Shown one piece after another: positions 13,448-52,772 of a stretch of 64,000 bases of DNA. Source of the stretch: an uncultured delta proteobacterium (GTDB lineage Bacteria; Desulfobacterota; RBG-13-43-22); the NCBI GenBank assembly GCA_963821645.1, contig CAWGEQ010000039.1, positions 5,766 through 69,765 of the forward strand, read 5' to 3'. The notes under the pieces are model-generated. The model was not told the DNA's origin, did no database searches, and was given only the letters and a program-made list of their open reading frames with translations. The translations under genes and the position numbers were made by a program. Position 1 is the stretch's first letter, and each line of letters begins with the position of its first letter.

Positions 13448-13599
13448 TGTCCATCCGGAAACAGTATCTTTCCGGATGGAGCGGTCAGCTATCAGCTGTT
13501 AGCTTTCAGCAAAATCTTTTACATTAATGAGTTAGCTGAATGCTGATCGCTGACTGCTAAAAGCTTCATCCGGGAATTTTGGATTTCCGGATGAGAATA
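13448..13599. mobile_element. MITE-like copy (R3) of the tccggaaa/TCAGCTN element inserted in the rimO leader
   Basis: 152 bp between TTCA (13444-13447) and TTCA (13600-13603). The paralogous leader at 15401-15420 has a single TTCA and no insert. Confidence 0.6.
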
Positions 13600-19304: not shown

Positions 19305-19403
19305 AAGGTATAAGGTCCACGGTTTACGGGTTTTTAACCTTGGACCTCATACCTTGCACCTTTCACCTTTCACCTTGACCTTGAACCTTATACCTTGCAC
19401 CTT
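19305..19403. repeat. inverted AAGGTNC / GNACCTT heptamer array
   Basis: 19305-19324 pairs with 19336-19355 at 18/20, followed by further ACCTT-type units. Confidence 0.8.
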
Positions 19404-19407
19404 CTTT

Positions 19408-20151
19408 TCAAATCGCCACCAACTCCATCTTCCCCCAGACGCCTACCTGATCCCCAATAATGATCAAGACCCCTTCCACCTGGGGAATCTGCCGGGCCCA
19501 ATCCAAGGCCGGTTGAATATCGTTTTTGGTCTGTACCCGGTTACCTACGGCCGTAGCCAGGGCATCGGAGAGCACAGCCGAAGGAGATAACAGGGTTACC
19601 GCATCGGCCTTGCCGAAGCTTAGAGAATGACCCACCGTGCCCGACGAAGTGCAGAGTCCTCTGGGTGTTGGAGATGGGTCCAGCCGGATTCCTAATCTCT
19701 GACTCAAAGGAGACTGCCCGGCATAAATCCCGATGGTCAAAGGTTCAGGGCAAAGGATAAATAAATCCCCGCCGTTTTCAATGATAATGTCCTTCGATTC
19801 GGCCAATAAATCCTGACCGACAAATTGGGCCATGGCCCCGGCCACGGCCGCCATGGGGCCGACTCCGGCAATCCGAGCGGCTTGAAGCATGGCCTGGACA
19901 ATAGGCGGGGCCAGGGGGTCCAAGGCCAGGGGCTGGAGTGCTTCCTTGAATTCAGGGTTTTGTCGGATATAACTTTCCAGGGCATGGCGGTATTGATAAA
20001 CCCGTTCATACCCTTCGGCCGAAAGATTTTTCCTGGCCCGCACCCAGAGGTCGGTTTCTTTGACCTGGACGGTGAAAGAGACCCAATCCGGAGAATTGAT
20101 TTTACTGCGGTAGAACCGTTCCTGATGTTCAATCATAATAAAATGGTTCAA
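19408..20151 (-). CDS. UPF0280 / ApbE-like family protein
   Basis: 247 aa. GVGPMAAVAGAMAQFVG, IIENGGDLF, CTSSGTVGHSLSFGKADAVT, LSDALATAVGN. Confidence 0.7.
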   Translation of the reverse strand: MNHFIMIEHQERFYRSKINSPDWVSFTVQVKETDLWVRARKNLSAEGYERVYQYRHALESYIRQNPEFKEALQPLALDPLAPPIVQAMLQAARIAGVGPMAAVAGAMAQFVGQDLLAESKDIIIENGGDLFILCPEPLTIGIYAGQSPLSQRLGIRLDPSPTPRGLCTSSGTVGHSLSFGKADAVTLLSPSAVLSDALATAVGNRVQTKNDIQPALDWARQIPQVEGVLIIIGDQVGVWGKMELVAI

Positions 20152-20407
20152 GGTACAAGGTGCAAGGTTCGAGGTTAAAGGTCAAGGATCGAGGATCGAA
20201 CATCAAGGTCTAAGGTACAAGGTACAAGGTTCAAGGTTCAGAAGGTCCAAGGTCTGAGGTCACAAACCGTCCAAGTACCTTGCCTTTGTACTGACAAGCT
20301 ATGGTTTCCAACGGTTTATGCATCCAATACACGGCTTACGGCTTTTCCTTATCCCCTTGAACCTTGAACTTTTTACCTTGTGCCTTAAACCTTGAACCTT
20401 AAACCTT
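20145..20407. repeat. inverted AAGGTNC / GNACCTT heptamer array filling the whole UPF0280-dnaE spacer
   Basis: Left arm 20145-20262 (about 16 units), unique centre, right arm 20354-20407. Confidence 0.8.
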
Positions 20408-20410
20408 TTT

Positions 20411-23400
20411 CTATGGATAAACCACTTCCAAAATCGGATGGCAGGAGATGCCCTTTAGTTCTCTTCTTAACCTGGCCGAAGGCCGGATATTCTGGGTTTC
20501 CGGAAGGTTCAACAGGACCTGGCTTTTATCGGGAAGACAGGCGCAAATCTGGACCGGACAGGCGCCGGGATGTCCCTTTAAAAAATCGGATAACTCGATG
20601 ATCCGATCCCGGGTCAGACCTTCTACCGGAATCTTGAGAACGGCCTGCTGGGCCATTTTTTCTTCGGCCTCGGTCAGGAGCAGCATATCATTGGCAATCA
20701 CCTTGATCCCTTTTTCATCCTTGGTGGTAAACCCGGCAATCCACAAGGGACCTTCTTCTTTCAGGACCGTCGATGATTTTCGGTAAACATCCGAAAAAAT
20801 GATGACCTCACAGGAGCCGGTCAGATCTTCAATGGTGGCAAAGGCCATCCGCTCCCCTTTTTTGCTGTTGATCTCTTTCAAGGCCGCCACCATACCGACC
20901 AAACGCACATTTTCTTTGTCCTCATAGTCGGCCAAGGCCTGGATATCGACTGTCTTTAAGTCCGGTAAACTCTCGGCATAGCGGGTCAGGGGATGGCCGG
21001 TGATATAAAAACCCAGGATTTCCTTTTCATAGGAAAGCTTTTGGCTCTCTCTCCATTCTTCAGCCATCGGAGGCTCGATATCGGGGCGGGTTAACCCCGA
21101 ATCTCCTCCCATGGAAAAAAGACTGAACTGATTTTCGGTCTGTTCTTTTTGACGCTGCTGCCCTATCTCCAGGGCTTCGGGTAAAAAGGCCATCAGCCTG
21201 GCCCGGGCCACTCCCAGGGAATCAAAGGCCCCGCATTTAATCAGGCTTTCCACCACCCGGCGATTCACCCGGCGAAGATCCACCCGCTGACAAAAATCGA
21301 TCAGGGACTTGAAGGCCCCCTCCTTCTTTCTGGCCTCGAGGATGGACTCAATGGCCCCGGCCCCGACATTTTTCACCGCCGCCAACCCGAAACGGATCTT
21401 GTCTTCCACCACGGCAAAATCCAATGGACTCAGGTTCACATCGGGCGGCAGGACCACGATCCCTTTTTCCCGGCATTCGGTGATGCATTTGGTCACTTCC
21501 GTTGAATTGCCCATCTTGCTGGTCACCAAAGCGACCATAAAATCCAGAGGATAATGGGCCTTCAGATAGGCGGTCTGGTAGGTAATCAGGGCATAGGCGG
21601 CACTGTGGGACTTGTTGAAACCGTAGCCGCCGAAGGTCTCCATATTTTTAAAAATGGCTTCGGCCTTCTTTTGATCGATTTTTTTCTTTTTGGTCCCATC
21701 CAGAAAGCGGCTTTTCTGCTGGGCCATGACCTCGGGGATCTTTTTACCCATGGCCTTGCGCAAGATGTCGGCCTCTCCCATGGAATAATCGGCCATCAGA
21801 CCGGCGATCTGCATAACCTGCTCCTGATAGACGATAATCCCCAGGGTTTCTTTCAATACCCCTTCCAGGAGGGGATGCGGATATTCTACCGGTACTTCCC
21901 CATGTTTTCTCTTGATATAATCCGCCACCATCCCGCTATTTAAAGGGCCGGGGCGATAGAGGGCATTGAGGGCGATGAGGTCTTCAAAATTCTGGGGTTG
22001 GCTCTTGATCAAAAGGTCCTTCATGCCCGAACTTTCCAATTGAAACACCCCGGTAGTATCCCCTCGGGCTAATAGTTGGTAAGTTTCCGGATCATCCAAG
22101 GGGATCCGAATCAAATCAATCTTGAGGCCGTGGGTCCGTTCGATGGTCCTTAAGGCATACTGGATGATGGTCAGGTTGTTCAAGCCCAGGAGGTCGAACT
22201 TGATCAGGCCCATTTCCTGGACCGATTTCATTTCATACTGGGTCAGGATTTCACCCTTGGGGCCTTTGTATAAGGGAACGGTCTCGGTGATGGGATGGGG
22301 GGAAATGACCACGCCGGCGGCGTGGGTGGAGGCATGGCGGGGAAGTCCCTCCAGGGCTTCGGCAATGGTCAGCAGTTCTTTAATGGTCGGATCGGTTTCC
22401 TTCAGCTCTTTAAGCCGGGGCTCCGCCTCGAGGGCTTCTTTTAAAGTAATGTTTAATTTCGAAGGGATCAGCTTGGCGATCTTATCCACTTCGCCATAAG
22501 GGATATTCAGGGCCCGCCCCACATCCCGAATGACGGCCCGGGCCTGCATCTTTCCAAAAGTGATGATCTGGGCCACATGCTCTTGCCCATATTTCCCGGC
22601 AATGTATTTCAAGACCTCATCCCGCCGTTCTACGCAGAAATCCACGTCGATATCCGGGAGTTCTTTTCGTTCCAGGTTCAGAAAGCGCTCAAAGATCAGG
22701 CCGTAATCCAAAGGATCGATATCGGTAATCCCCAGGGAATAGGCCACCAGACTCCCGGCCCCGGAACCCCGGCCGGGTCCGACCGGAATCCCTTGCTGCT
22801 TGGCAAACCCCACATAATCGGCCACGACCAAAAAATATCCGGAAAATCCCGTTGTGGTGATTACCATCAGTTCCTTTTCCAGGCGGTCCCGATACTCTTT
22901 AAAACGCGACGGGGGAAAGGAGGGATCCAGTTGTTCCTTCATTGACAGTCTTTTCTCCAGACCGGCGCGGGCCTCATTTTTAAGCCGGCCGTCCATGGTC
23001 TCTTCCGGGGGCAAGGGATAGCGGGGGAGAAAAGATTGGCCGAAGTTCAATTCCAGGTTGCAGCGATCGGCAATGCGCAGGGTATTTTGGATGGCTTCCG
23101 GCAAGTCTGAAAAAAGGGCCGTCATCTCTTCCGGTGATTTGAAATAAAGCTGATTGGTGGAAAAACGCAACCGGTTGGGGTCTTCAACGGTCTTCCCGGT
23201 CTGGATGCAAAGCAAGACGTCATGGGCCTTGGACTCTTCCTGGGTCAGGTAATGACAATCGTTGGTGGCCACGATGGGTATGCCCAACTGACGGTGGATC
23301 TCCAGCAACCCCTTATTGACGATTTCCTGCTCGGGGATATCGTTTTTTTGCAGTTCAAGAAAAAAACGATCCTGATCGAAGATCTCGGCCATTTCCCGGG

Positions 23401-23836
23401 TGATTTTTAAAGCCCGGTCATAGTCGTTATTAAGCAAGGCATAGGGGATTTCGCCGTGAAGACAGGCCGACAGGGCGATCAATCCTTTATGATGCTCCTT
23501 CAGAAGCTCCCGGTCGATCCTGGGTTTATAATAAAAACCTTCAAAATAGGCCTGGGTCACCAATTTGACTAAGTTACGATAACCCTTTTCATTTTTGCAG
23601 AGCAAGACCAAGTGGAAGGCGTTTTCCCTGTGGGGATGGCCCTCTTTATCAAAGCGGCTTCCCGGGGCCACATACATTTCGCAGCCGATGATGGGTTTCA
23701 GTCCATGTTTCTGGGCCTGTTTATAAAACTCCACCATGCCGAAGATGTTGCCGTGATCGGTCATGGTTATGGCCGGGAGTTTGAAGGCCTGGGCCTTTTC
23801 AAACAACTCTTTGAGCCTTATCTCACCATCCAGCAA
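20411..23836 (-). CDS. dnaE: DNA polymerase III alpha subunit, downstream duplicate: complete C-terminus, lacks native start
   Basis: 1141 aa with PHP, polymerase core, OB and C-terminal domains. Frame is open only from a stop at 23915-23917. First usable start is TTG 23836, so the first 17 aa including part of HLHLHTQYS are missing. Confidence 0.85.
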   Translation of the reverse strand: MLDGEIRLKELFEKAQAFKLPAITMTDHGNIFGMVEFYKQAQKHGLKPIIGCEMYVAPGSRFDKEGHPHRENAFHLVLLCKNEKGYRNLVKLVTQAYFEGFYYKPRIDRELLKEHHKGLIALSACLHGEIPYALLNNDYDRALKITREMAEIFDQDRFFLELQKNDIPEQEIVNKGLLEIHRQLGIPIVATNDCHYLTQEESKAHDVLLCIQTGKTVEDPNRLRFSTNQLYFKSPEEMTALFSDLPEAIQNTLRIADRCNLELNFGQSFLPRYPLPPEETMDGRLKNEARAGLEKRLSMKEQLDPSFPPSRFKEYRDRLEKELMVITTTGFSGYFLVVADYVGFAKQQGIPVGPGRGSGAGSLVAYSLGITDIDPLDYGLIFERFLNLERKELPDIDVDFCVERRDEVLKYIAGKYGQEHVAQIITFGKMQARAVIRDVGRALNIPYGEVDKIAKLIPSKLNITLKEALEAEPRLKELKETDPTIKELLTIAEALEGLPRHASTHAAGVVISPHPITETVPLYKGPKGEILTQYEMKSVQEMGLIKFDLLGLNNLTIIQYALRTIERTHGLKIDLIRIPLDDPETYQLLARGDTTGVFQLESSGMKDLLIKSQPQNFEDLIALNALYRPGPLNSGMVADYIKRKHGEVPVEYPHPLLEGVLKETLGIIVYQEQVMQIAGLMADYSMGEADILRKAMGKKIPEVMAQQKSRFLDGTKKKKIDQKKAEAIFKNMETFGGYGFNKSHSAAYALITYQTAYLKAHYPLDFMVALVTSKMGNSTEVTKCITECREKGIVVLPPDVNLSPLDFAVVEDKIRFGLAAVKNVGAGAIESILEARKKEGAFKSLIDFCQRVDLRRVNRRVVESLIKCGAFDSLGVARARLMAFLPEALEIGQQRQKEQTENQFSLFSMGGDSGLTRPDIEPPMAEEWRESQKLSYEKEILGFYITGHPLTRYAESLPDLKTVDIQALADYEDKENVRLVGMVAALKEINSKKGERMAFATIEDLTGSCEVIIFSDVYRKSSTVLKEEGPLWIAGFTTKDEKGIKVIANDMLLLTEAEEKMAQQAVLKIPVEGLTRDRIIELSDFLKGHPGACPVQICACLPDKSQVLLNLPETQNIRPSARLRRELKGISCHPILEVVYP

Positions 23837-23938
23837 GCTGTACTGGGTATGGAGATGGAGATGGACAAACGGGGCTTGAGAACGGCTGCTGGGCCATTTT
23901 TTCTTCGGCCTCGGTCAGGAGCTGCATATCATTGGCAA

Positions 23939-26900
23939 TCACCTTGATCCCTTTTTCGCCTTGGTGGTAAACCCGGCAATCCACAAGGGACCTTCTTCTT
24001 TCAGAACCGTCGATGATTTTCGGTAAACATGAGAAAAAATGATGACCTCACAGGAGCCGGTCAGATCTTCAATGGTGGCAAAGGCCATCCGCTCCCCTTT
24101 TTTGCTGTTGATCTCTTTTAAGGCCGCCACCATACCGACCAAACGCACATTTTCTTTGTCCTCATAGTCGGCCAAGGCCTGGATATCGACTGTCTTTAAG
24201 TCCGGTAAACTCTCGGCATAGCGGGTCAGGGGATGGCCGGTGATATAAAAACCCAGGATTTCCTTTTCATAGGAAAGCTTTTGGCTCTCTCTCCATTCTT
24301 CAGCCATCGGAGGCTCGATATCGGGGCGGGTTAATCCAGAATCTCCTCCCATGGAAAAAAGACTGAACTGATTTTCGGTCTGTTCTTTCTGACGCTGCTG
24401 CCCTATCTCCAGGGCTTCGGGTAAAAAGGCCATCAGCCTGGCCCGGGCCACTCCCAGGGAATCAAAGGCCCCGCATTTAATCAGGCTTTCCACCACCCGG
24501 CGATTCACCCGGCGAAGATCCACCCGCTGACAAAAATCGATCAGGGACTTGAAGGCCCCCTCCTTCTTTCTGGCCTCTAAGATGGACTCAATGGCCCCGG
24601 CACCGACATTTTTCACCGCCGCCAACCCGAAACGGATCTTGTCTTCCACCACGGCAAAATCCAATGGACTCAGATTCACATCGGGCGGCAGGACCACGAT
24701 CCCTTTTTCCCGGCATTCGGTGATGCATTTGGTCACCTCCGTTGAATTGCCCATCTTGCTGGTCACCAAAGCGACCATAAAATCCAGAGGATAATGGGCC
24801 TTCAGATAGGCGGTCTGGTAGGTAATCAGGGCATAAGCGGCGCTGTGGGACTTGTTGAAACCGTAGCCGCCAAAGGTTTCCATATTTTTAAAAATGGCTT
24901 CGGCCTTCTTTTGATCAATTTTTTTCTTTTTGGTCCCATCCAGAAAGCGGCTTTTCTGCTGGGCCATGACCTCGGGGATCTTTTTACCCATGGCCTTGCG
25001 CAAGATGTCGGCCTCTCCCATGGAATAATCGGCCATCAGACCGGCGATCTGCATAACCTGCTCCTGATAGACGATAATCCCCAGGGTTTCTTTCAATACC
25101 CCTTCCAGGAGGGGATGCGGATATTCTACCGGTACTTCCCCATGTTTTCTCTTGATATAATCCGCCACCATCCCGCTATTTAAAGGGCCGGGGCGATAGA
25201 GGGCATTGAGGGCGATGAGGTCTTCAAAATTCTGGGGTTGGCTCTTGATCAAAAGGTCCTTCATGCCCGAACTTTCCAATTGAAACACCCCGGTAGTATC
25301 CCCTCGGGCCAATAGTTGGTAAGTTTCCGGATCATCCAAGGGGATCCGAATCAAATCAATCTTGAGGCCGTGGGTCCGTTCGATGGTCCTTAAGGCATAC
25401 TGGATGATGGTCAGGTTGTTCAAGCCCAGGAGGTCGAACTTGATCAGGCCCATATCCTGGACCGATTTCATTTCATACTGGGTCAGGATTTCACCCTTGG
25501 GGCCTTTATATAAGGGAACGGTCTCGGTGATGGGATGGGGGGAAATGACCACGCCGGCGGCGTGGGTGGAGGCATGGCGGGGAAGTCCCTCCAGGGCTTC
25601 GGCAATGGTCAGCAGTTCTTTAATGGTCGGATCGGTTTCCTTCAGCTCTTTAAGCCGGGGCTCCGCCTCAAGGGCTTCTTTTAAAGTAATGTTTAATTTC
25701 GAAGGGATCAGCTTGGCGATCTTATCCACTTCGCCATAAGGGATATTCAGGGCCCGCCCCACATCCCGAATGACGGCCCGGGCCTGCATCTTTCCAAAAG
25801 TGATGATCTGGGCCACATGCTCTTGCCCGTATTTCCCGGCAATGTATTTTAAGACCTCATCCCGCCGTTCTACGCAGAAATCCACGTCGATATCCGGGAG
25901 TTCTTTTCGTTCCACGTTCAGAAAGCGCTCAAAGATCAGGCCGTAATCCAACGGATCGATATCGGTAATCCCCAGGGAATAGGCCACCAGACTCCCGGCC
26001 CCGGAACCCCGGCCGGGTCCGACCGGAATCCCTTGCTGCTTGGCAAACCCCACATAATCGGCCACGACCAAAAAATATCCGGAAAATCCCGTTGTGGTGA
26101 TTACCGTGAGTTCCTTTTCCAGGCGGTCCCGATACTCTTTAAAACGCGACGGGGGAAAGGAGGGATCCAGTTGTTCCTTCATGGACAGTCTTTTCTCCAG
26201 ACCGGCGCGGGCCTCATTTTTAAGCCGGCCGTCCATGGTCTCTTCCGGGGGCAAGGGATAGCGGGGGAGAAAAGATTGGCCGAAGTTCAATTCCAGGTTG
26301 CAACGATCGGCAATGCGCAGGGTATTTTGGATGGCTTCCGGCAAGTCTGAAAAAAGGGCCGTCATCTCTTCCGGTGATTTGAAATAAAGCTGATTGGTGG
26401 AAAAACGCAACCGGTTGGGGTCTTCAACGGTCTTCCCGGTCTGGATGCAAAGCAAGACGTCATGGGCCTTGGCCTCTTCCTGGGTCAGATAATGACAGTC
26501 ATTAGTAGCCACTATGGGGAGACCCAACTGACGGCTGATTTCCAACAAACCCTTGTTGACGATTTCCTGTTCCGGGATATCATTCTTTTGCAGTTCAAGA
26601 AAAAAACGATCCTGATCGAAGATCTCGGCCATTTCCCGGGTGATTTTTAAAGCCCGGTCATAGTCTTTATTAAGCAAGGCATAGGGGATTTCGCCGTGAA
26701 GACAGGCCGACAGGGCGATCAATCCTTTATGATGCTCCTTCAGGAGTTCCCGGTCGATCCTGGGTTTATAATAAAAACCTTCGAAATAGGCCTGGGTCAC
26801 CAATTTGACTAAGTTACGATAACCCTTTTCATTTTTGCAGAGCAAGACCAGGTGGAAGGCGTTTTCCCTGTGGGGATGGCCCTCTTTATCGAAGCGGCTT

Positions 26901-27124
26901 CCCGGGGCCACATACATTTCGCAGCCGATGATGGGTTTCAGTCCATGTTTCTGGGCCTGTTTATAAAACTCCACCATGCCGAAGATGTTGCCGTGATCGG
27001 TCATGGTTATGGCCGGGAGTTTGAAGGCCTGGGCCTTTTCAAACAACTCTTTGAGCCTTATCTCCCCATCCAGCAAGCTGTACTGGGTATGGAGATGGAG
27101 ATGGACAAACGGGGCGTGGGGCAT
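23939..27124 (-). CDS. dnaE: DNA polymerase III alpha subunit, upstream duplicate: native start, C-terminally truncated by a 1-nt deletion
   Basis: Starts MPHAPFVHLHLHTQYSLLDG (ATG 27124). Collinear with the other copy, with 8 aa differences. Ends ...GFTTKAKKGSR, about 100 aa short. Confidence 0.85.
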   Translation of the reverse strand: MPHAPFVHLHLHTQYSLLDGEIRLKELFEKAQAFKLPAITMTDHGNIFGMVEFYKQAQKHGLKPIIGCEMYVAPGSRFDKEGHPHRENAFHLVLLCKNEKGYRNLVKLVTQAYFEGFYYKPRIDRELLKEHHKGLIALSACLHGEIPYALLNKDYDRALKITREMAEIFDQDRFFLELQKNDIPEQEIVNKGLLEISRQLGLPIVATNDCHYLTQEEAKAHDVLLCIQTGKTVEDPNRLRFSTNQLYFKSPEEMTALFSDLPEAIQNTLRIADRCNLELNFGQSFLPRYPLPPEETMDGRLKNEARAGLEKRLSMKEQLDPSFPPSRFKEYRDRLEKELTVITTTGFSGYFLVVADYVGFAKQQGIPVGPGRGSGAGSLVAYSLGITDIDPLDYGLIFERFLNVERKELPDIDVDFCVERRDEVLKYIAGKYGQEHVAQIITFGKMQARAVIRDVGRALNIPYGEVDKIAKLIPSKLNITLKEALEAEPRLKELKETDPTIKELLTIAEALEGLPRHASTHAAGVVISPHPITETVPLYKGPKGEILTQYEMKSVQDMGLIKFDLLGLNNLTIIQYALRTIERTHGLKIDLIRIPLDDPETYQLLARGDTTGVFQLESSGMKDLLIKSQPQNFEDLIALNALYRPGPLNSGMVADYIKRKHGEVPVEYPHPLLEGVLKETLGIIVYQEQVMQIAGLMADYSMGEADILRKAMGKKIPEVMAQQKSRFLDGTKKKKIDQKKAEAIFKNMETFGGYGFNKSHSAAYALITYQTAYLKAHYPLDFMVALVTSKMGNSTEVTKCITECREKGIVVLPPDVNLSPLDFAVVEDKIRFGLAAVKNVGAGAIESILEARKKEGAFKSLIDFCQRVDLRRVNRRVVESLIKCGAFDSLGVARARLMAFLPEALEIGQQRQKEQTENQFSLFSMGGDSGLTRPDIEPPMAEEWRESQKLSYEKEILGFYITGHPLTRYAESLPDLKTVDIQALADYEDKENVRLVGMVAALKEINSKKGERMAFATIEDLTGSCEVIIFSHVYRKSSTVLKEEGPLWIAGFTTKAKKGSR

Positions 27125-27133
27125 CTTTAATCC

Positions 27134-27355
27134 AGGTATAAGGTACAAGGTGCAAGGTGTAAGGTTAAAAACAACAAACTTCCTCTATGCTTTGAGCTTA
27201 TTTGTTTGCAATATATTTTTCTCCCTCTTACATCCCACATCTTATCCCTTGCCTCCTGATCCCTTAATTCTTTGGGTTTGCACCCTGCGTCTTAACCTTG
27301 CACCTTGGACCTTATACCTTGAACCCTTCACCTTGTACCTTGGGCCTTGCACCTT
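27134..27355. repeat. inverted AAGGTNC / GNACCTT heptamer array (dnaE-guaA spacer)
   Basis: Left arm 27134-27167, ~125-nt centre, right arm 27293-27355. Confidence 0.8.
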
Positions 27356-27359
27356 TCTT

Positions 27360-28919
27360 TCATTCCCACTCGATCGTACTGGGGGGCTTGGAAGAGATAT
27401 CGAAGACAACCCGGTTGACCCCTTTGACTTCATTGATGATCCGGTTGGAAAGGCGACTTAAAAGGTCATAGGGGATCCGGGTCCAGTCCGCCGTCATGGC
27501 ATCCAGACTGTCGACGATGCGCAAGGCGATGACATGTTCATAGGTTCGCTCATCCCCCATGACTCCCACGGTCTTGATCGGCAGCAGAACGGCAAAAGAC
27601 TGCCAGACCTTGGTGTACAAGTCGGCCTTTCTTATCTCTTCCCAGACGATGGTATCGGCCTGACGGAGGATGGACAAACGGGCCTCGGTCACCTCCCCCA
27701 GGATACGGATGGCCAGTCCCGGCCCGGGGAAAGGCTGCCGGTTGACGACCTCTTCGGGCAGGCCAAGGTTGCGGCCCACTTCACGCCCCTCATCTTTAAA
27801 CAACTCCCGCAGGGGCTCGATGAGTTTTAATTTCATTCGGGCCGGAAGTCCGCCCACATTATGATGGGTCTTGATCGTAGCCGAAGGGCCTCTAAACGAG
27901 ACCGATTCGATCACATCCGGATACAGGGTGCCCTGGGCCAGGAAACGGACGGGGCCGATCTTTCTGGCCTCGGCTTCAAAAATTCGGATAAATTCATGAC
28001 CGATGATGGTCCGCTTTTTTTCCGGGTCGATCACCCCTTGGAGTTTTTTTAGAAATGACCTGGAGGCATCCACATAAACCAAGGGGATATGATAATGGCC
28101 CCGGAAAAGTTTGACCACCTTCTCGGCCTCTCCGCTGCGCAGCACCCCATTGTTGACAAAGATACAGGTCAATTGTTTGCCGATGGCCTGATGGAGCAGG
28201 ACCGCCACCACCGAAGAATCTACCCCGCCGGAAAGGGCGCAGATCACTTTTTCGTGGCCCACCTGTTGTCGAATGGCGGTGATGGTCTGTTTGATAAAAG
28301 AACTGGGGGTCCATAAAGGTTTCAGACGGCAGACCTTAAAAAGAAAATTCTTCAGGATCCGCTGCCCGGATGGGGTATGGACCACTTCAGGATGGAACTG
28401 GACCCCGAAGACCGTGCGGGCCTGGTTACCCATGGCCGCCACCGGCGCATTATGGCTTTGGGCAATGGCTACAAAACCTTTGGGAAGCTTTTCGATCCGG
28501 TCCCCATGACTCATCCAGACGACCTGACTCTTTTTCCCTCCCCCTTTGTCCAGTCCGAAGAAGAGGTCTTGAAAATCCAGAAAATTGAGTTCCACCCGGC
28601 CGTATTCTCTTTTGGCCGACCGCCCTACCCGGCCTTTTAACTGATGGGTGATCCACTGCATGCCATAACAGATTCCCAAAATCGGGATCCCTAAATCCAA
28701 AATTTTCGGGTCCGGGATAGGGGCCTTGGGATCATAAACGCTGGCCGGGCTTCCGGACAGGATAATCCCCTTGGGATCGAAGGCCTTGATTTTTTCCCAA
28801 GGCCAATTAAAGGGATGGATCTCGCAGTAAACCTTGGCCTCCCGGACCCGGCGGGCAATGAGCTGGGTCGTCTGGGAGCCAAAATCTAAAATGAGGACTT
28901 TTTGACTGTGTATGTCCAT
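27360..28919 (-). CDS. guaA: GMP synthase (glutamine-hydrolysing)
   Basis: 519 aa. GATase (GICYGMQ), ATP-PPase SGGVDSS, C-terminal ...PPSTIEWE. Confidence 0.95.
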
Positions 28920-28934
28920 TTTTAATACCTATTG

Positions 28935-28970
28935 GGTTTAAGGTTCAAGGTATAAGGTCTACGGTTGAGG
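28935..28970. repeat. AAGGTNC-type arm flanking the four-helix-bundle gene
   Basis: ggtttaaggttcaaggtataaggtctacggttgagg. 13-nt perfect complement (caaggtataaggt) to 29365-29398. Confidence 0.75.
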
Positions 28971-28978
28971 AAAAAACA

Positions 28979-29335
28979 TTAATTCTTTGATCTGGCTTGA
29001 ATCAATTTTGTTAACATACTTGAAATGGCTTGACATTCATTCTGTATGTGGATGAGATTTTCCTGATTTATGTAACCTATTTCAAAAGAAATAAGCGCTT
29101 GTGTTAATAGTTCGGCCAGAGAACCTTTAGCCATAAAAAAATACTGAACAGATTGCTTGTTGGTTTTTAATTCATCTCCTTCTGCGATATTGCTCGGAAC
29201 GGATACCGCAGCCCGACGAATCTGGTCTCTCAAACCATAATCTTTGGAAAAAGGTCCTTCATTGGTTAATTGGTAAATAAAAACGGCCAAAATTTTTGCT
29301 CGTTGCCAGACTTTTAAGTCGAAGAAGTTTCCCAT
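28979..29335 (-). CDS. four-helix-bundle protein (23S rRNA intervening-sequence protein family)
   Basis: 118 aa. DLKVWQRA, LRDQIRRAAVSVPSNIAEG, AKGSLAELLTQ. More AT-rich than guaA/guaB. Confidence 0.85.
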   Translation of the reverse strand: MGNFFDLKVWQRAKILAVFIYQLTNEGPFSKDYGLRDQIRRAAVSVPSNIAEGDELKTNKQSVQYFFMAKGSLAELLTQALISFEIGYINQENLIHIQNECQAISSMLTKLIQARSKN

Positions 29336-29364
29336 GACTTCTCCTCTATTTTCATTTTTTTATT

Positions 29365-29397
29365 TACCTTGGACCTTACACCTTATACCTTGGACCT

Positions 29398-29398
<1 letters not shown>
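29365..29398. repeat. GNACCTT-type arm flanking the four-helix-bundle gene
   Basis: taccttggaccttacaccttataccttggacctt. Abuts the guaB stop codon. Confidence 0.75.
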
Positions 29399-31029
<1,631 letters not shown>

Positions 31030-32097: not shown

Positions 32098-32325
32098 ATG
32101 CCCACCAAAAACCCGAGAATCAATGTCGTCCTTGATAAACCCCTTTATCAAAACATCCAATTCCTGGCTAAAAAGGACGGAGTATCTTTATCCACCAAAC
32201 TGAGAGATCTGATTAAAGAAGCGTTGGATGTCCAAGAAGATGTCTATTTGACCAAGGTGGCCGAAAAACGGGAAAAGTCTTTTAAGGACTCCCGGGCGTT
32301 TAGCCATGAGGAAGTCTGGGCTTGA
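32098..32325 (+). CDS. ribbon-helix-helix antitoxin (RelB/CopG-like)
   Basis: 75 aa. NPRINVVLDKPLYQNIQFLAKKDGVSLSTKLRDLIKEAL. RBS ggagagg. Confidence 0.6.
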   Translation: MPTKNPRINVVLDKPLYQNIQFLAKKDGVSLSTKLRDLIKEALDVQEDVYLTKVAEKREKSFKDSRAFSHEEVWA

Positions 32326-32338
32326 TTACCAGGTTGCT

Positions 32339-32521
32339 GAAACGGGTACCGCCCCGTAGGGGTGGGAGTAAGCCGCGATGTGGGCGAAAAAAGGCCCATC
32401 TATTGCGTTCCCCTCACCCCTCGTCATTGCGGCGTACTTCTATGTACGCCTCATTCCTCGGGATTTCTTCGCATCGAGGGCGCTGCTCAGTCCCACCCCT
32501 TCGGGGCGGGTTCCCGGTTTC
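32339..32521. mobile_element. ~183-bp TIR-bounded structured insertion between antitoxin and toxin genes
   Basis: Left end gaaacgggtaccgccccgtaggggtgggagt. Reverse complement of right end is gaaaccgggaacccgccccgaaggggtgggact. Internal hairpins ggcgtac-ttctat-gtacgcc and cctcg..cgagg. Confidence 0.45.
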
Positions 32522-32607
32522 GGGCGCCTTATATCTGGACCTTTTTGAGCAACCTGTCAAAAAAGAGTTTTTCCGCATCCTGTTGTTTGAATAAGGGCTT
32601 AAATCAG

Positions 32608-32898
32608 ATGACTTTTGAACTTGCCTATCATCCAGAAGTAAAAAAAATGGACTTGCCCAGGATCGACTTAAAAAATAAGGCCATGATTAAAAAAGCCATT
32701 GAGGAACGCTTAACTACCGGGCCAGAACTTTACGGAAGACCTTTACGACGAACTCTCAAGGGATACTGGAAACTTAGGGTTGGAGAATATCGGATCGTTT
32801 TTAAAATAACGGGGAGGAAAATTTTTATTTTTGGAATTATCCATAGAAAAGATATTTATCCTCAGGTAACCAGACGAGCCATCAGGGAAATCTCATGA
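32608..32898 (+). CDS. RelE/StbE-family toxin
   Basis: MTFELAYHPEVKKMDLPRIDLKNKAMIKKAIEERL...LKGYWKLRVGEYRIVFKI. Internal ATG of ORF 32362..32898. Confidence 0.75.
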   Translation: MTFELAYHPEVKKMDLPRIDLKNKAMIKKAIEERLTTGPELYGRPLRRTLKGYWKLRVGEYRIVFKITGRKIFIFGIIHRKDIYPQVTRRAIREIS

Positions 32899-35284: not shown

Positions 35285-35323
35285 AGCTCTTAGCTATTAG
35301 CTGTCAGCTTTCAGCTTTCAGCT
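35285..35323. repeat. TNAGCTN-type heptamer arm
   Basis: agctcttagctattagctgtcagctttcagctttcagc. Roughly complementary to 35676-35708. Confidence 0.65.
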
Positions 35324-35375
35324 TGTTGATGAATGAGATAACATCTTTTTCACTTCGAGCAATTCTTGGTTTAAT

Positions 35376-35668
35376 TCATTCATAATCAAAGTTGTTTAAA
35401 AAACCTAAATCGTGGGCAAGTAATAGATGATATTCCAACTCACTGGCGGAACCCATAGCTATTTGAAAAAAGCGGGCCATTTCAGCTTCGCTATTTCTGC
35501 CACACCCTTCCGCAATATTGGCCGGGAATAGAGATACAGGCCCTTCTAACCTGGCTGGTCAATCCGTAACAATTCTTCCTTTGGAAAGCTTAATGTCTTC
35601 TTATACACTTTCAGAGTTAATTGATGGCTTTTCTGCCAAACCATCAATTCTTTAAAATTTTTCAGATG
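35376..35668 (-). pseudogene. decayed four-helix-bundle (23S rRNA IVS-protein family) gene
   Basis: Minus strand reads [40 protein letters not shown]. The +1 frame then reads [47 protein letters not shown]. No start codon, one frameshift. Confidence 0.7.
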
Positions 35669-35675
35669 GCCGCCT

Positions 35676-35708
35676 CGCTTTCAGCTGAATCGCTAATCGC
35701 TAATTGCT
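35676..35708. repeat. GCTNANN-type heptamer arm
   Basis: cgctttcagctgaatcgctaatcgctaattgc. Overlaps the 3' end of the beta-subunit gene. Confidence 0.6.
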
Positions 35709-36458
35709 TCCTGGCTGTATTTCTTTAAATATCCCCAATGGGAAATAGGGGATCATCTCTTCCCCGACCCGCTTGTTAGCCTTTTCCGGGGACATCTTCC
35801 AGTTGGTGGGACAACTGGAGAGGAATTCCACAAAGGAAAATCCCTGATTCTTGATCTGGACTTCAAAGGCCTTTTTCAACATCTTTTTGGCCTGCATCAG
35901 ATTTTTGGGAGTATCGACGGCCACCCGGGCGGAAAAGGTCGTTCCTCCCAGCATGGTCATGAGTTCGGCCATGCGGATCGGATACCCTTCACGGCGAAAA
36001 TCCCGTCCGAATGGGGAGGTGGTCGTGGCCTGACCCAACATGGTCGTCGGGGCCATCTGACCCCCGGTCATCCCATAAACAGTGTTGTTGACAAAGATGA
36101 TGGTAATATTTTCCCCACGATTGGCGGCATGAAGACCCTCGGCAATACCCAGGGCAGCCAGGTCCCCGTCTCCCTGATAGGTAAAGACAAAATTCTCCGG
36201 TCTGGCCCTTTTGATCCCCGTGGCCACGGCCGCCGCCCTTCCATGGGGGGACTCACAGACATCGATGTCAAAATAGTCATACATAAAGACCGAGCAACCC
36301 ACCGAGGCGGCACAGATGGTCTTTTCCCGAAGATCATAGGCATCGAGGCATTCGGCCACCAGTCGGTGGATGACGCCGTGATGACACCCGGGACAAAAAT
36401 GAAAGGGCACATCTTTCAAACTCTTGGGACGTTTAAATACCTGTTTCATTACCTTCAC
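35700..36458 (-). CDS. 2-oxoacid:ferredoxin oxidoreductase beta subunit (TPP-binding)
   Basis: 252 aa. [12 protein letters not shown]...[11 protein letters not shown]. Confidence 0.9.
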
Positions 36459-43715: not shown

Positions 43716-45002
43716 ATGTTGGACCTAAAACTGATTCGGGAACGGTTGGCCTGGGTCAAGGATCGGCTGTCCCTGCGCGGCCAGGATTTGCCCTGGGAAA
43801 CCTTTGAGTCTTTAGATAAGGAACGCCGGGAGATCCTCCAAGAGACAGAGTCCTTAAAGCACCGTCGCAATGTGGTTTCCGAGCAGATCGGCAGGAAGAA
43901 ACAGGAAAAACAAGAGGCCCGGGAAGCCATTGAGGAAATGCGTCAAGTTTCAAAAAGGATCAAGGAATTTGATGATGCCTTAACCCTGATTGAAGAGAAA
44001 TTCTCGGCCATACTGCTTACCTTGCCCAATATTCCTCATGAATCGGTTCCCGTCGGTTATTCCAGCGATGACAACCCGGTCGTTCGCACCTGGGGCGACA
44101 AACCGATTTTTTCTTTCTCCCCCCGGCCCCACTGGGAGATCGGAGAAGCCTTGGATATCCTCGACTTCGAAAGGGCCACCCGGATGACCGGGGCCCGTTT
44201 TGTAGTTTATAAAGGGCCGGGGGCCAGACTGGAACGGGCCCTGATCAATTTTATGCTCGACCTGCACACCAAAACCCATGGATACACCGAAATCCTCCCC
44301 CCTTTCATGGTCAACAGCCAAAGCATGACCGGCACCGGTCAATTGCCCAAATTTAGGGATGAGCTGTTTAAATTGGAAGGATGGGATTATTATTTGATCC
44401 CCACGGCCGAAGTGCCGGTGACCAACCTCTTTCAGCAGGAAACCCTTTCCGCCCAGGAACTGCCCAAATATTTTGTGGCCTGTACCCCTTGCTTTCGATC
44501 CGAAGCCGGTTCTTACGGCAAAGATACCCGTGGCCTTATACGCCAGCATCAGTTCAACAAAGTGGAGTTGGTGAAATTCAGTCTCCCTGAAGATTCTTAC
44601 GCCGAGCTGGAAGCTTTGCTGGGAAACGCCGAAGAGGTCCTTAAACGGTTGCAGTTGCCCTATCAGGTGGTCAGCCTTTGTACCGGCGATCTGGGGTTTT
44701 CTTCGGCCAAGACCTATGATATCGAAGTATGGCTCCCCGGACAAAATCTATACCGGGAAATATCTTCCTGCAGCAATTTTGAAGATTTTCAGGCTCGCCG
44801 GGCCAATATCCGTTTTCGTCGGGAAGGCAGGTCCAAGACCGAGCTGGTCCACACCTTGAATGGCTCCGGCTTGGCTGTGGGCCGAACCCTGGTAGCCCTC
44901 TTAGAAAACTACCAGCAAGCCGACGGCAGCATCCTGATCCCGCCGGCCTTGCAGCCTTACATGGACGGCATCGAGCGGATAACCAAAAGGTGCAAGGTAT
45001 AA
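43716..45002 (+). CDS. serS: seryl-tRNA synthetase
   Basis: 428 aa. N-terminal coiled coil, class II motifs ([16 protein letters not shown]). Confidence 0.95.
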
Positions 45003-45091
45003 GGTATAAGGTTCAAGATACAAGAAAAAATTTAAAAACCTTACGACCTTGGCATCAACCCGTGAACCTTATACCTTGGACCGTGGACCTT
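44987..45091. repeat. inverted heptamer array between convergent serS and queD
   Basis: aaggtgcaaggtataaggtataaggttcaag ... aaccttacgaccttgg..gtgaaccttataccttggaccgtggacctt. The last 5 serS codons lie in the left arm. Confidence 0.75.
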
Positions 45092-52654: not shown

Positions 52655-52700
52655 TTCCGCTTTTTTCTTGACAAGCCGGATTGACCATGAATACCTTAAA

Positions 52701-52752
52701 AAGGTCAAAGGTCAAAGGTCAAAGGTCAAAGGTCAAAGGTCAACAGGTCAAA
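52701..52752. repeat. six perfect tandem AAGGTCA units plus one variant
   Basis: aaggtca x6 (52701-52742), then acaggtca. Confidence 0.9.
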
Positions 52753-52772
52753 GCCGCTCCAAGGTTTCCCAA

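What the first reader, a model, noticed from the sequence alone, without database searches (positions are those of the whole stretch)
28935..29398. Four-helix-bundle (23S rRNA IVS-protein family) gene nested exactly between inverted heptamer arms inside guaB-guaA
The 118-aa four-helix-bundle gene (28979..29335) is the only content between an AAGGTNC arm (28935-28970) and a GNACCTT arm (29365-29398). The arms share a 13-nt perfect complement (caaggtataaggt / accttataccttg). The unit sits between guaB and guaA on the same strand and is more AT-rich than both. This topology mirrors rRNA intervening sequences, where an ORF of this family sits in the loop of a long stem excised by RNase III. Here the host is an mRNA spacer. 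It suggests the cargo-less arrays elsewhere are empty versions of the same element, and that this protein family (which also includes DGR Avd) travels with them.
Basis: partly seen in the sequence, partly recalled or inferred. Interest (0 to 1): 0.75.

Follow-up and report, generated by a model that had tools for sequence, protein, structure and literature searches.

The report
Four-helix-bundle gene inside heptamer-repeat hairpin
A small, conserved gene of the "23S rRNA intervening-sequence protein" family sits between guaB and guaA, enclosed by two complementary arrays of 7-base repeats, and the same gene-plus-heptamer packaging recurs around this gene family in many bacterial phyla and in ANME-1 archaea, linking two long-unexplained features of prokaryotic genomes.

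Summary
On the minus strand, guaB (29398-30870) is followed by about five AAGGTNN heptamers (29364-29398) and a Shine-Dalgarno sequence. Next come an intact 118-aa PF05635/TIGR02436 gene (28979-29335), about five complementary heptamers (28934-28967) and guaA.

- **Stem:** the arms close the predicted fold of the 491-nt transcript (z = -4.1).
- **Inheritance:** nine orthologous guaB-gene-guaA loci all keep the gene and both arms. The gene is under purifying selection (dN/dS 0.09).
- **Ancestral state:** more distant relatives have a 5-14 nt guaB-guaA junction, so the cassette is an insertion.
- **Generality:** in 76 relatives from many phyla, both flanks show 7-nt periodicity (lag-7 identity 0.47 against 0.25 in controls). 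The unit core A-A-G-G-Y is shared across phyla.
- **Other clades:** a second, decayed copy in the window and cyanobacterial plasmid copies carry other heptamers. These largely track protein clade.
- **Cargo-less hairpins:** hairpins of the same units fill other spacers.

I read it as an rRNA-IVS-type cassette living in an mRNA spacer. RNase III processing and protein binding to the repeats are inferred, not shown. I found no prior description beyond a note on Coxiella's IVS. I rate it a new variant of a known kind.

The parts
29398..30870 (-). guaB (IMP dehydrogenase). Its stop codon TGA lies at 29398-29400 and its last base is the first base of the 5' arm.
   Evidence: PF00478 at E 3e-162. 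Orthologs are 489 aa. The longest ORF runs to 30963.
29364..29398 (-). 5' arm in mRNA sense: AAGGTCC AAGGTAT AAGGTGT AAGGTCC AAGGTAA.
   Evidence: Period-7 array, inverted repeat, sequence. It pairs with the 3' arm in the minimum-energy fold.
29336..29363 (-). A-rich leader inside the loop, with the Shine-Dalgarno sequence GAGGAG (29341-29346) 5 nt before the ATG.
   Evidence: Read directly. An SD-like motif is present upstream in 54 of 77 family loci.
28979..29335 (-). 118-aa four-helix-bundle protein gene (PF05635 / TIGR02436), intact.
   Evidence: Family matches. AlphaFold model pLDDT 92.7, four long helices plus a short helical turn, TM 0.84 to 2GSC. dN/dS 0.086 across orthologs.
28934..28967 (-). 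3' arm in mRNA sense: CAACCGT AGACCTT ATACCTT GAACCTT AAACCC.
27360..28919 (-). guaA (GMP synthase). Its start lies 14 nt after the 3' arm.
   Evidence: PF00117 and PF00958.
27134..27355 (.). Cargo-less AAGGTNN/ACCTT hairpin in the guaA-dnaE spacer.
   Evidence: Fold energy -66.2 kcal/mol.
30895..31029 (.). Cargo-less heptamer hairpin between the Ppx/GppA gene and guaB.
   Evidence: Fold energy -35.2 kcal/mol. Ppx-GppA identified.
20145..20407 (.). Large cargo-less AAGGTNN hairpin that also contains AGGATCG units.
   Evidence: Fold energy -100.7 kcal/mol.
19305..19403 (.). Cargo-less hairpin with unequal arms (4 against 10 heptamers) and a short loop.
44987..45091 (.). Cargo-less AAGGTNN hairpin between convergent genes.
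52700..52753 (+). Single array (AAAGGTC) x 7.6 with no complementary arm seen.
35330..35680 (-). Second PF05635 copy from a different clade. It is decayed by frameshifts and a premature stop. It lies between the beta and gamma subunit genes of a 2-oxoacid:ferredoxin oxidoreductase.
   Evidence: hmmsearch E 1.6e-7 and 6.9e-5 on two frames. Translations. Neighbours identified.
35684..35712 (-). 5' arm of the second copy: AGCAATT AGCGATT AGCGATT CAGCTGA.
   Evidence: It pairs with the 3' arm in the fold.
35285..35324 (-). 3' arm of the second copy: AGCTGAA AGCTGAA AGCTGAC AGCTAAT AGCTAAG.

Best explanation
This is an intervening-sequence-type cassette lodged in an operon spacer rather than in 23S rRNA. 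The unit has four parts:
- a 5' arm of about five AAGGTNN heptamers;
- a short A-rich leader with its own Shine-Dalgarno sequence;
- a PF05635 four-helix-bundle gene;
- a 3' arm of about five complementary heptamers.

**How it most likely works**
1. It has no promoter or terminator of its own, so it is read through as part of the guaB-guaA transcript.
2. In that RNA the two arms pair into an imperfect duplex of roughly 23-30 bp. The duplex closes off the roughly 400-nt AT-rich insert.
3. As in rRNA intervening sequences, this duplex is most likely cut by RNase III. That would separate the guaB, cassette and guaA RNAs and make the insertion tolerable.
4. The protein is made and has a function. 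Its relatives are pentameric rings and one of them (Avd) grips an RNA stem-loop. I infer that it binds the heptamer stem or arrays of its own type.
5. Gene and arms belong together as one repeat-bounded element family. Cargo-less hairpins of the same unit populate other spacers of the same genome.
6. Spread probably needs no transposase. Homologous recombination between arrays would be enough.

**Shown here:** the anatomy, conservation, selection, periodicity, the link between unit and protein clade, and the pairing potential.

**Inferred:** co-transcription, RNase III cleavage, protein-repeat binding and the mode of spread.
For: - **Anatomy and stem:** (z = -4.1).
- **Transcription signals:** no promoter-like or terminator-like site lies in either spacer. 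A strong SD sits inside the loop.
- **Orthologs:** nine orthologous loci (window, L001, L002, L006, L015, L016, L174, L176, L177) keep gene and arms. Arm-arm duplexes are -34 to -47 kcal/mol while heptamer number and sequence change. L006 carries an ACGGT/ACCGT double change.
- **Selection:** dN/dS is 0.086 for the gene, against 0.071 for guaA and 0.045 for guaB, at dS near 1.
- **Insertion:** relatives at 72% identity or less have 5-14 nt guaB-guaA spacers. The ORF is 36% GC against 54% for its neighbours. It is more AT-rich than its flanks in 74 of 77 loci.
- **Periodicity in 76 loci from many phyla:** lag-7 identity is 0.48 upstream and 0.46 downstream against 0.25 in controls, with harmonics at 14 and 21. 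Lag 7 is the top lag in 55 and 57 of 76 flanks, against 25 of 380 control windows.
- **Arm arrangement and size:** arms are inverted in 52 of 77 loci. Median arm length is 35 nt, or five units.
- **Unit core:** AAGGY, with a GG core in 108 of 112 arrays.
- **Unit tracks protein clade:** the window's second copy and its relatives use AGCT-type units. Nostoc edaphicum and Geminocystis proteins are 72% identical and use GGGAACA and GGGAAGA.
- **Cargo-less arrays match:** distant arrays in the same loci share the unit type of the gene's arms in 35 of 56 cases. Both heptamer families with cargo-less arrays in the window are the two that flank its two gene copies.
- **Operon setting:** the gene is co-oriented with both neighbours in 46 of 66 loci, with gaps of about 90 nt. 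Examples are cas6|gene|cas4, cmr2|gene|cmr3 and parA|gene|parB in cultured cyanobacteria.
- **Unit order matters:** the real order of units pairs better than permuted order in 24 of 30 loci.
- **Protein relatives:** the structural matches 2GSC, 2RLD and Avd 4DWL each have five chains. Avd binds an RNA stem-loop in the DGR ribonucleoprotein (bioRxiv 10.1101/2023.10.23.563531).
- **Precedent:** Coxiella's IVS is cut by RNase III at the first of its tandem heptamers (PMC4990558).
Against: - No RNA data exist for this organism. Cleavage and co-transcription are inferences.
- Cognate arms pair no better than arms swapped between orthologs (-40.3 against -38.5 kcal/mol). Pairing could therefore follow from both arms being drawn from one degenerate repeat, without selection for a stem.
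- The unit-order effect is modest. Only 23% of loci beat 95% of permutations.
- Heptamer arrays also occupy 33% of other spacers near these genes and 24% of spacers in the window. The arrays do not need the gene locally.
- In 18 of 77 loci the gene lies inside one arm, so a closing stem around the ORF is not obligatory.
- Riemerella's protein is only 28% identical to the window's yet has AAGGTTN arms. The clade-unit rule has exceptions.
- Cargo-less loops show no homology to the cassette.
- The protein has no recognisable catalytic or nucleic-acid-binding motif beyond family resemblance.
Confidence: 0.5

Rival explanations
1. Passenger model. The heptamer hairpins are autonomous host intergenic repeats of the REP/STRR kind. 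They would act, for example, as mRNA stabilisers, processing sites or terminators. The PF05635 gene is merely a selfish or neutral passenger that lands in them by homologous recombination. Its protein has nothing to do with the repeats.
For: - Arrays are frequent without the gene: 49 of 148 other spacers near it and 9 of 38 spacers in the window.
- The gene's position within the arrays varies between loop and arm.
- Cargo-less loops are unrelated to the cassette.
- Cognate and swapped arms pair equally well.
- The ORF is AT-rich relative to its host in 74 of 77 loci, as expected for a transferred gene.
Against: - The unit core AAGGY follows the protein clade across phyla and into archaea, rather than following the host.
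- Two clades in one genome sit in two different heptamer families (L026 and L040).
- The gene is under strong purifying selection through long vertical descent.
- Arrays are 2.2 times more frequent next to the gene than in other spacers of the same loci. They are 14 times more frequent than in unrelated guaA-anchored loci.
Confidence: 0.25
2. DNA-site model. The arrays are double-stranded DNA binding sites, as proposed for the paired hepta- and octanucleotide arrays of Geobacter. The four-helix-bundle protein would be a DNA-binding regulator or nucleoid protein that autoregulates through the sites flanking its own gene. The RNA hairpin would be incidental.
For: - Geobacter metallireducens has paired tandem heptanucleotide arrays annotated as putative global-regulator sites (PMC2700814).
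- About five units per arm match a pentameric protein.
- Unit type tracks protein clade.
Against: - The polarity is nearly always G-rich arm first, then C-rich arm (42 against 2). The arrangement is also usually inverted. Both suggest a folded single strand rather than a row of duplex sites.
- The only family member with a known ligand binds an RNA stem, together with a reverse transcriptase.
- The gene lies within operons, not upstream of them.
Confidence: 0.12
3. A guanine-nucleotide-specific accessory gene. The protein would be a dedicated regulator or subunit for the guaBA pathway, which would explain its conserved place between guaB and guaA.
For: The guaB-gene-guaA order is conserved in nine loci, and dN/dS is as low as for guaA.
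Against: - Close homologs (57-73% identical) sit in unrelated contexts. More distant family members lie between cas, par and tra genes.
- Relatives with tight guaB-guaA junctions lack it.
- Its composition is foreign to the operon.
Confidence: 0.03
4. An orphan Avd left behind by a diversity-generating retroelement.
For: There are weak matches to Avd models: NF033474 at E 3e-4 and phrog_3206 at E 1.7e-4. The fold resembles 4DWL with TM about 0.8.
Against: - NF033474 scores 21 bits against a cut-off of 80.
- The neighbours are guaB and guaA, with no reverse transcriptase.
- The closest structures are the non-DGR proteins 2GSC and 2RLD.
- No clade-1 relative was found in 2.9 million viral contigs.
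Confidence: 0.02

Closest known systems
23S rRNA intervening sequences that carry a PF05635 ('S23p') ORF (Leptospira, Coxiella burnetii), excised by RNase III
   Same: The ORF family is the same. The ORF sits in the loop of a long stem formed by terminal inverted repeats. Coxiella's stem contains tandem heptamers (GACAGAT x 3-4), and the RNase III site is at the first repeat (PMC4990558). The insert is AT-rich.
   Different: - The host here is an intercistronic mRNA spacer (guaB-guaA), not helix 25 or 45 of 23S rRNA.
- The ORF is intact, has a strong SD and is under purifying selection. In Coxiella it is decaying and probably untranslated.
- The arms consist entirely of heptamer arrays. The same arrays are also dispersed without cargo.
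Short tandemly repeated repetitive (STRR) heptamers of cyanobacteria, and the paired heptanucleotide arrays of Geobacter
   Same: They are tandem 7-nt units in intergenic regions, often as inverted pairs (PMC2700814). Cyanobacterial PF05635 genes on plasmids are flanked by such arrays.
   Different: In what I could search, those repeats were described without any associated gene. Here they bracket a specific gene family, and the unit type follows the protein clade.
REP/REPIN elements and their RAYT transposases
   Same: A single protein gene is flanked by inverted copies of a short repeat. That repeat is also scattered through intergenic regions as cargo-less hairpins.
   Different: RAYTs are HUH/Y1 transposases with catalytic motifs. 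The four-helix bundle has none. The repeats are tandem heptamers, not 20-35 nt palindromes. No mobility has been shown.
Avd, the accessory protein of diversity-generating retroelements
   Same: It has the same fold and superfamily. It is a pentameric barrel and binds an RNA stem-loop.
   Different: There is no reverse transcriptase, template repeat or variable repeat here. The Avd equivalog model fails its cut-off.

Membership tests
PF05635 / TIGR02436 four-helix-bundle ('23S rRNA IVS protein') family | Profile match above the curated threshold | tested here: met
   PF05635 scores 117.2 bits against a cut-off of 33.8. TIGR02436 scores 112.5 bits against 24.
PF05635 / TIGR02436 four-helix-bundle ('23S rRNA IVS protein') family | Four-helix-bundle fold like XCC0516 (2GSC) | tested here: met
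   The AlphaFold model has pLDDT 92.7 with long helices at 4-24, 33-55, 59-85 and 91-116. It matches 2GSC at TM 0.84-0.85 and rmsd 1.5-1.7. Sequence E-value to 2GSC is 6e-17.
PF05635 / TIGR02436 four-helix-bundle ('23S rRNA IVS protein') family | Conserved R..S...N..EG motif | tested here: met
   R40, S45, N49, E52 and G53 are invariant in alignment A1. The motif is described in PMC3936711.
PF05635 / TIGR02436 four-helix-bundle ('23S rRNA IVS protein') family | Homopentameric ring | not testable with these tools
   Only a monomer could be modelled. The homologs 2GSC, 2RLD and 4DWL each have five chains.
rRNA intervening sequence (IVS) | Inserted within a 23S rRNA gene | tested here: not met
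   It lies between guaB and guaA. No rRNA is present in the window.
rRNA intervening sequence (IVS) | Long terminal inverted-repeat stem enclosing the insert | tested here: met
   The same holds in nine orthologs.
rRNA intervening sequence (IVS) | Excised from the transcript by RNase III | not testable with these tools
   This needs RNA end mapping or an enzyme assay.
DGR Avd | Equivalog model above cut-off, and an adjacent reverse transcriptase with template and variable repeats | tested here: not met
   NF033474 scores 21.1 bits against a cut-off of 80. The neighbours are guaB and guaA.
REPIN/RAYT system | The flanked gene encodes a Y1/HUH transposase | tested here: not met
   The only Pfam match is PF05635.
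REPIN/RAYT system | The gene is flanked by inverted copies of a repeat that is dispersed through the genome | tested here: met
STRR-type tandem heptamer repeats | Tandem units of 7 nt in intergenic DNA | tested here: met
Anti-phage defence systems (PADLOC) | Match to a defence-protein model | tested here: not met
   No family matched.

The most novel reading that the evidence does not exclude
PF05635 four-helix-bundle proteins may be the dedicated trans-acting partners of tandem-heptamer hairpin elements. Each protein clade would recognise its own heptamer core and promote the maintenance or spread of those arrays. That would make a RAYT/REPIN-like but transposase-free system. It would unify three things as one widespread class of element in bacteria and archaea: rRNA intervening sequences, cyanobacterial STRR repeats, and the intercistronic hairpins seen here.
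Probability: 0.3. Interest if true: 0.85.

Novelty: new variant of a known kind. Interest (0 to 1): 0.72.

Why it matters
Three puzzles have stood for more than thirty years:
- what the "23S rRNA intervening-sequence proteins" do;
- where rRNA intervening sequences come from;
- what the tandem heptamer (STRR-type) repeats of cyanobacteria and other bacteria are for.

The evidence here ties the three together. The same gene family is packaged in heptamer-repeat hairpins in mRNA spacers across phyla and in ANME-1 archaea. Repeat type largely follows protein clade, and cargo-less hairpins of the same type sit nearby.

That turns vague questions into direct experiments. One can ask whether the protein binds its cognate heptamer RNA or DNA. 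One can ask whether RNase III cuts the stem, and whether arrays change when the gene is removed.

It also matters for annotation. These genes appear inside cas, par and housekeeping operons as insertions, not as functional partners of their neighbours.

Tried and rejected
1. **Arm co-evolution.** I paired each ortholog's 5' arm with every ortholog's 3' arm. Cognate pairs were no better than swapped ones (-40.3 against -38.5 kcal/mol). There is therefore no covariation claim beyond one ACGGT/ACCGT case in L006.
2. **A poor null for pairing.** Mismatched upstream and downstream flanks from different loci also pair strongly (median -36 against -49.6 kcal/mol). This is because nearly all 5' arms are G-rich and nearly all 3' arms are C-rich. 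I replaced this control with dinucleotide shuffles (median z -2.9) and unit permutation.
3. **Cargo-less hairpins as deletion derivatives.** Their loops show no significant similarity to the cassette interior. Rejected.
4. **The nearest relative without the gene (L094).** It has heptamer arrays of another unit in the guaB-guaA spacer, but the fold is not significant (z -1.3). It is not a clean empty hairpin.
5. **Clade 1 in viral contigs.** None were found. Clade 2 gave only 7 loci.
6. **Exact-sequence look-up of the window protein.** It is not on record.
7. **Rfam.** Nothing was found in the window but one tRNA.
8. **Defence-system models.** No match.
9. **Literature.** Six full-text searches found no description of the gene-heptamer association apart from the Coxiella IVS note. 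Subscription-only papers and database family comments were not searchable, so prior mention cannot be excluded.
Full report
**What is in the window.** All relevant genes are on the minus strand. Reading in mRNA sense:
- guaB (PF00478, E 3e-162) ends with a TGA at 29398-29400.
- The last base of that stop is the first base of five tandem heptamers, AAGGTCC AAGGTAT AAGGTGT AAGGTCC AAGGTAA (29364-29398).
- A 28-nt A-rich leader follows, with GAGGAG 5 nt before an ATG.
- Next is a 118-codon ORF (28979-29335), then 11 nt.
- Then come five roughly complementary heptamers, CAACCGT AGACCTT ATACCTT GAACCTT AAACCC (28934-28967).
- After 14 more nt, guaA starts (PF00117 and PF00958).

The ORF matches PF05635 (E 5e-34) and TIGR02436 (E 1e-32). 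Its AlphaFold model (pLDDT 92.7) is a four-helix bundle. The model superposes on XCC0516 (2GSC, TM 0.84), BT_0352 (2RLD) and the DGR protein Avd (4DWL, TM about 0.8). Each of those was solved with five chains.

**Is it more than chance?** Several results say yes.
- Tandem Repeats Finder reports both arms as period-7 arrays, and the repeat finder pairs them.
- AAGGTNC occurs 77 times in the window against 37 +/- 5.6 in shuffles.
- The minimum-energy fold of the 491-nt transcript is closed by the arm-arm stem, with z = -4.1.
- The cassette is 36% GC (GC3 34%) between genes of 54% GC (GC3 66%).
- No promoter-like or terminator-like site lies in either spacer.

**History at this locus.** Proteins 81-97% identical to the window's are encoded in metagenome contigs and MAGs labelled Thermodesulfobacteriota or Deltaproteobacteria. 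They always sit in the order Ppx/GppA - guaB - gene - guaA - dnaE.
- All nine distinct orthologous loci have an AAGGTNN 5' arm abutting the guaB stop and an ACCTT-type 3' arm before guaA.
- The number and sequence of heptamers differ between them. Every pair of arms can still form a duplex of -34 to -47 kcal/mol.
- The ORF evolves under purifying selection. Median dN/dS is 0.086 at dS about 0.9, compared with 0.071 for guaA and 0.045 for guaB.
- One ortholog (L016) has an in-frame stop.
- The next relative (L094; guaB 87% and guaA 78% identical) lacks the gene. Its 142-nt spacer holds heptamers of another unit, but its fold is not significant.
- At 72% identity or less, guaB and guaA are 5-14 nt apart.

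So a tight ancestral junction was invaded. The cassette has since been inherited vertically as a functional gene.

**Generality.** A scan of 185,579 species genomes with an alignment of this clade found 515 relatives. I studied the best 80. They come from Thermodesulfobacteriota, Nitrospirota, Bacteroidota, Cyanobacteriota, Brocadiaceae, Ignavibacteriaceae and ANME-1 archaea, at 57-85% identity. The results below come from the 76-77 of those loci with a full-length copy (66 where both neighbouring genes could be called).
- Mean sequence identity at lag 7 is 0.48 upstream and 0.46 downstream, against 0.25 in control windows. Harmonics appear at lags 14 and 21.
- Lag 7 is the best lag between 4 and 12 in 55 of 76 upstream and 57 of 76 downstream flanks. 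The control figure is 25 of 380. Most of the remaining flanks have period 8.
- The arms are inverted in 52 of 77 loci. In 18 the same array lies on both sides, because the gene sits inside one long arm and the complementary arm lies further on.
- The median arm is 35 nt, or five units.
- The gene is co-oriented with both neighbours in 46 of 66 loci, with gaps of about 90 nt.
- The gene is more AT-rich than its surroundings in 74 of 77 loci.
- The hairpins almost always run G-rich arm first, then C-rich arm (42 against 2). That polarity reads the same on either strand.

**Unit type follows the gene.**
- Across all these phyla the unit is A-A-G-G-Y-N-N. A GG core occurs in 108 of 112 arrays, with AGGC 33 times, AGGT 23 and AGGG 12.
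- The window holds a second, decayed copy from another clade (about 34% identical) at 35330-35680. It lies between the beta and gamma subunit genes of a 2-oxoacid:ferredoxin oxidoreductase. Its arms are AGCGATT and AGCTNNN arrays, which also pair.
- Relatives of that clade carry related units: AAAAGCT in Pseudanabaena, AGCTGTT in Calothrix, AGCTATT in one viral contig, and TCGGCNN in a sister group.
- The Nostoc edaphicum and Geminocystis proteins are 72% identical and have GGGAACA and GGGAAGA arms.
- Loci L026 and L040 each hold two clades with two different repeat units.
- Riemerella is the exception, with a 28%-identical protein and AAGGTTN arms.
- The plasmid examples come from complete sequences of cultured strains. 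There the gene lies between cas6 and cas4, cmr2 and cmr3, and parA and parB. The pattern is therefore not a metagenome assembly artefact.

**Cargo-less arrays.**
- The window has AAGGTNN hairpins in the spacers Ppx-guaB, guaA-dnaE, dnaE-next gene and the one after. It has another between convergent genes near 45 kb. Fold energies run from -33 to -101 kcal/mol.
- It also has short AGCT-type arrays at 13485, 34630 and 60165. These two families account for essentially all the period-7 arrays in the window.
- By one criterion, heptamer arrays occupy 48 of 67 spacers adjacent to clade-1 genes and 49 of 148 other spacers in the same loci. The figures are 9 of 38 for the window and 8 of 152 for unrelated guaA-anchored loci.
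- Distant arrays share the unit type of the local gene's arms in 35 of 56 cases.
- Their loops are unrelated to the cassette.

Thus the arrays are a genome-wide feature of genomes that carry the gene. They are enriched next to it and matched to it in type, but they do not depend on it locally.

**Mechanism.** The closest precedent is the 23S rRNA intervening sequence. In Coxiella a PF05635 ORF lies in the loop of a 28-bp terminal stem. The stem contains three or four GACAGAT heptamers, and RNase III cuts at the first of them (PMC4990558). The window element has the same architecture in an mRNA.

I therefore propose that it is co-transcribed with guaB and guaA. The arms would form an imperfect duplex of roughly 23-30 bp, and RNase III would cut it, insulating the operon from the insert. 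Unlike the Coxiella ORF, this one has a strong SD inside the loop and is under purifying selection, so the protein acts. Avd, the one family member with a known ligand, is a pentamer that binds an RNA stem-loop (bioRxiv 10.1101/2023.10.23.563531). That fact, the clade-unit correspondence and the five-unit arms lead me to infer that the protein binds its own heptamer stem or arrays. The arms give 35-100 nt of homology with every other array of the same type, so homologous recombination could move the gene between hairpins without a transposase.

None of these four steps (co-transcription, cleavage, binding, recombination) is demonstrated here.

**Cautions.**
- Arms swapped between orthologs pair as well as cognate arms. 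Permuting the order of units weakens pairing in 24 of 30 loci, but significantly in only 23%. Much of the stem potential therefore comes simply from both arms being arrays of one degenerate unit.
- The passenger model remains a serious rival. In it, host repeats are merely used as landing pads.
- A DNA-site model, as proposed for the Geobacter arrays (PMC2700814), is also open.

**Novelty.**
- PF05635 ORFs in rRNA IVSs, STRR heptamers and paired heptanucleotide arrays are each known.
- PF05635 genes inside cas operons have been noted without explanation (PMC3936711).
- In six full-text searches I found no statement that this gene family is generally embedded in tandem-heptamer hairpins, or that unit type follows protein clade.
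- Paywalled papers and database comments could not be checked.

I rate it a new variant of a known kind, with a plausible larger reading given under the novel case.

Noticed in passing
window 20633-23875 and 23875-27115: There is a head-to-tail duplication of 3.24 kb, 98.15% identical over 3243 nt. It gives two dnaE ORFs of 1141 and 1069 aa. Relatives have a single dnaE of 1157 aa after guaA. This is either a recent tandem duplication or an assembly artefact.
   Followed up: partly
window 20185-20200; L094 2459-2600: AGGATCG units are nested inside the large AAGGTNN hairpin of the window. The same unit, with GCATCCA, fills the guaB-guaA spacer of the nearest relative that lacks the gene. This is a third heptamer family with no associated gene seen.
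   Followed up: partly
window 52700-52753: A nearly perfect (AAAGGTC) x 7.6 array (95% matches) stands alone after a gene end, with no complementary arm nearby.
   Followed up: no
window 13366-13401 and 13485-13510: A period-8 array (AGGGGTCG x 4.5) lies about 90 nt from an AGCT-type heptamer array (TCAGCTA x 3.7) in one spacer.
   Followed up: no
L048, L052, L064 (ANME-1 / Methanophagales contigs): Archaeal contigs encode clade-1 proteins 64-67% identical to the bacterial one in the window. L048 and L052 have AAGGCNA-type arms, which implies transfer between domains of gene and repeats together. L064 had no callable start codon and its flanks were not analysed.
   Followed up: partly
window 28979-29335 compared with L001: Between the window and its closest relative, synonymous divergence of the small gene (dS 0.34) is more than three times that of the flanking guaA (0.10) and guaB (0.06). 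This could be small-sample noise or gene conversion from another copy.
   Followed up: no
window 32098-32898: A small antitoxin-like ORF (32098-32325) is followed by a RelE/ParE-like ORF. The homologous position in L001 carries a ParE_toxin gene.
   Followed up: no
L047 3001-3366 and flanks: Here the gene is buried in very long composite arrays. Heptamers (GCGGTAT and similar) alternate with longer units (GGAAAAGAACGG), repeated over more than 500 nt on both sides.
   Followed up: no
L185 (Pseudanabaena galeata plasmid pPg_01) 1040-1200 and 1560-1665: Between cas6 and cas4 the gene is flanked by 16 perfect AAAAGCT units upstream and 10 AAAAGCC units downstream. The two arrays are in direct orientation.
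   Followed up: partly
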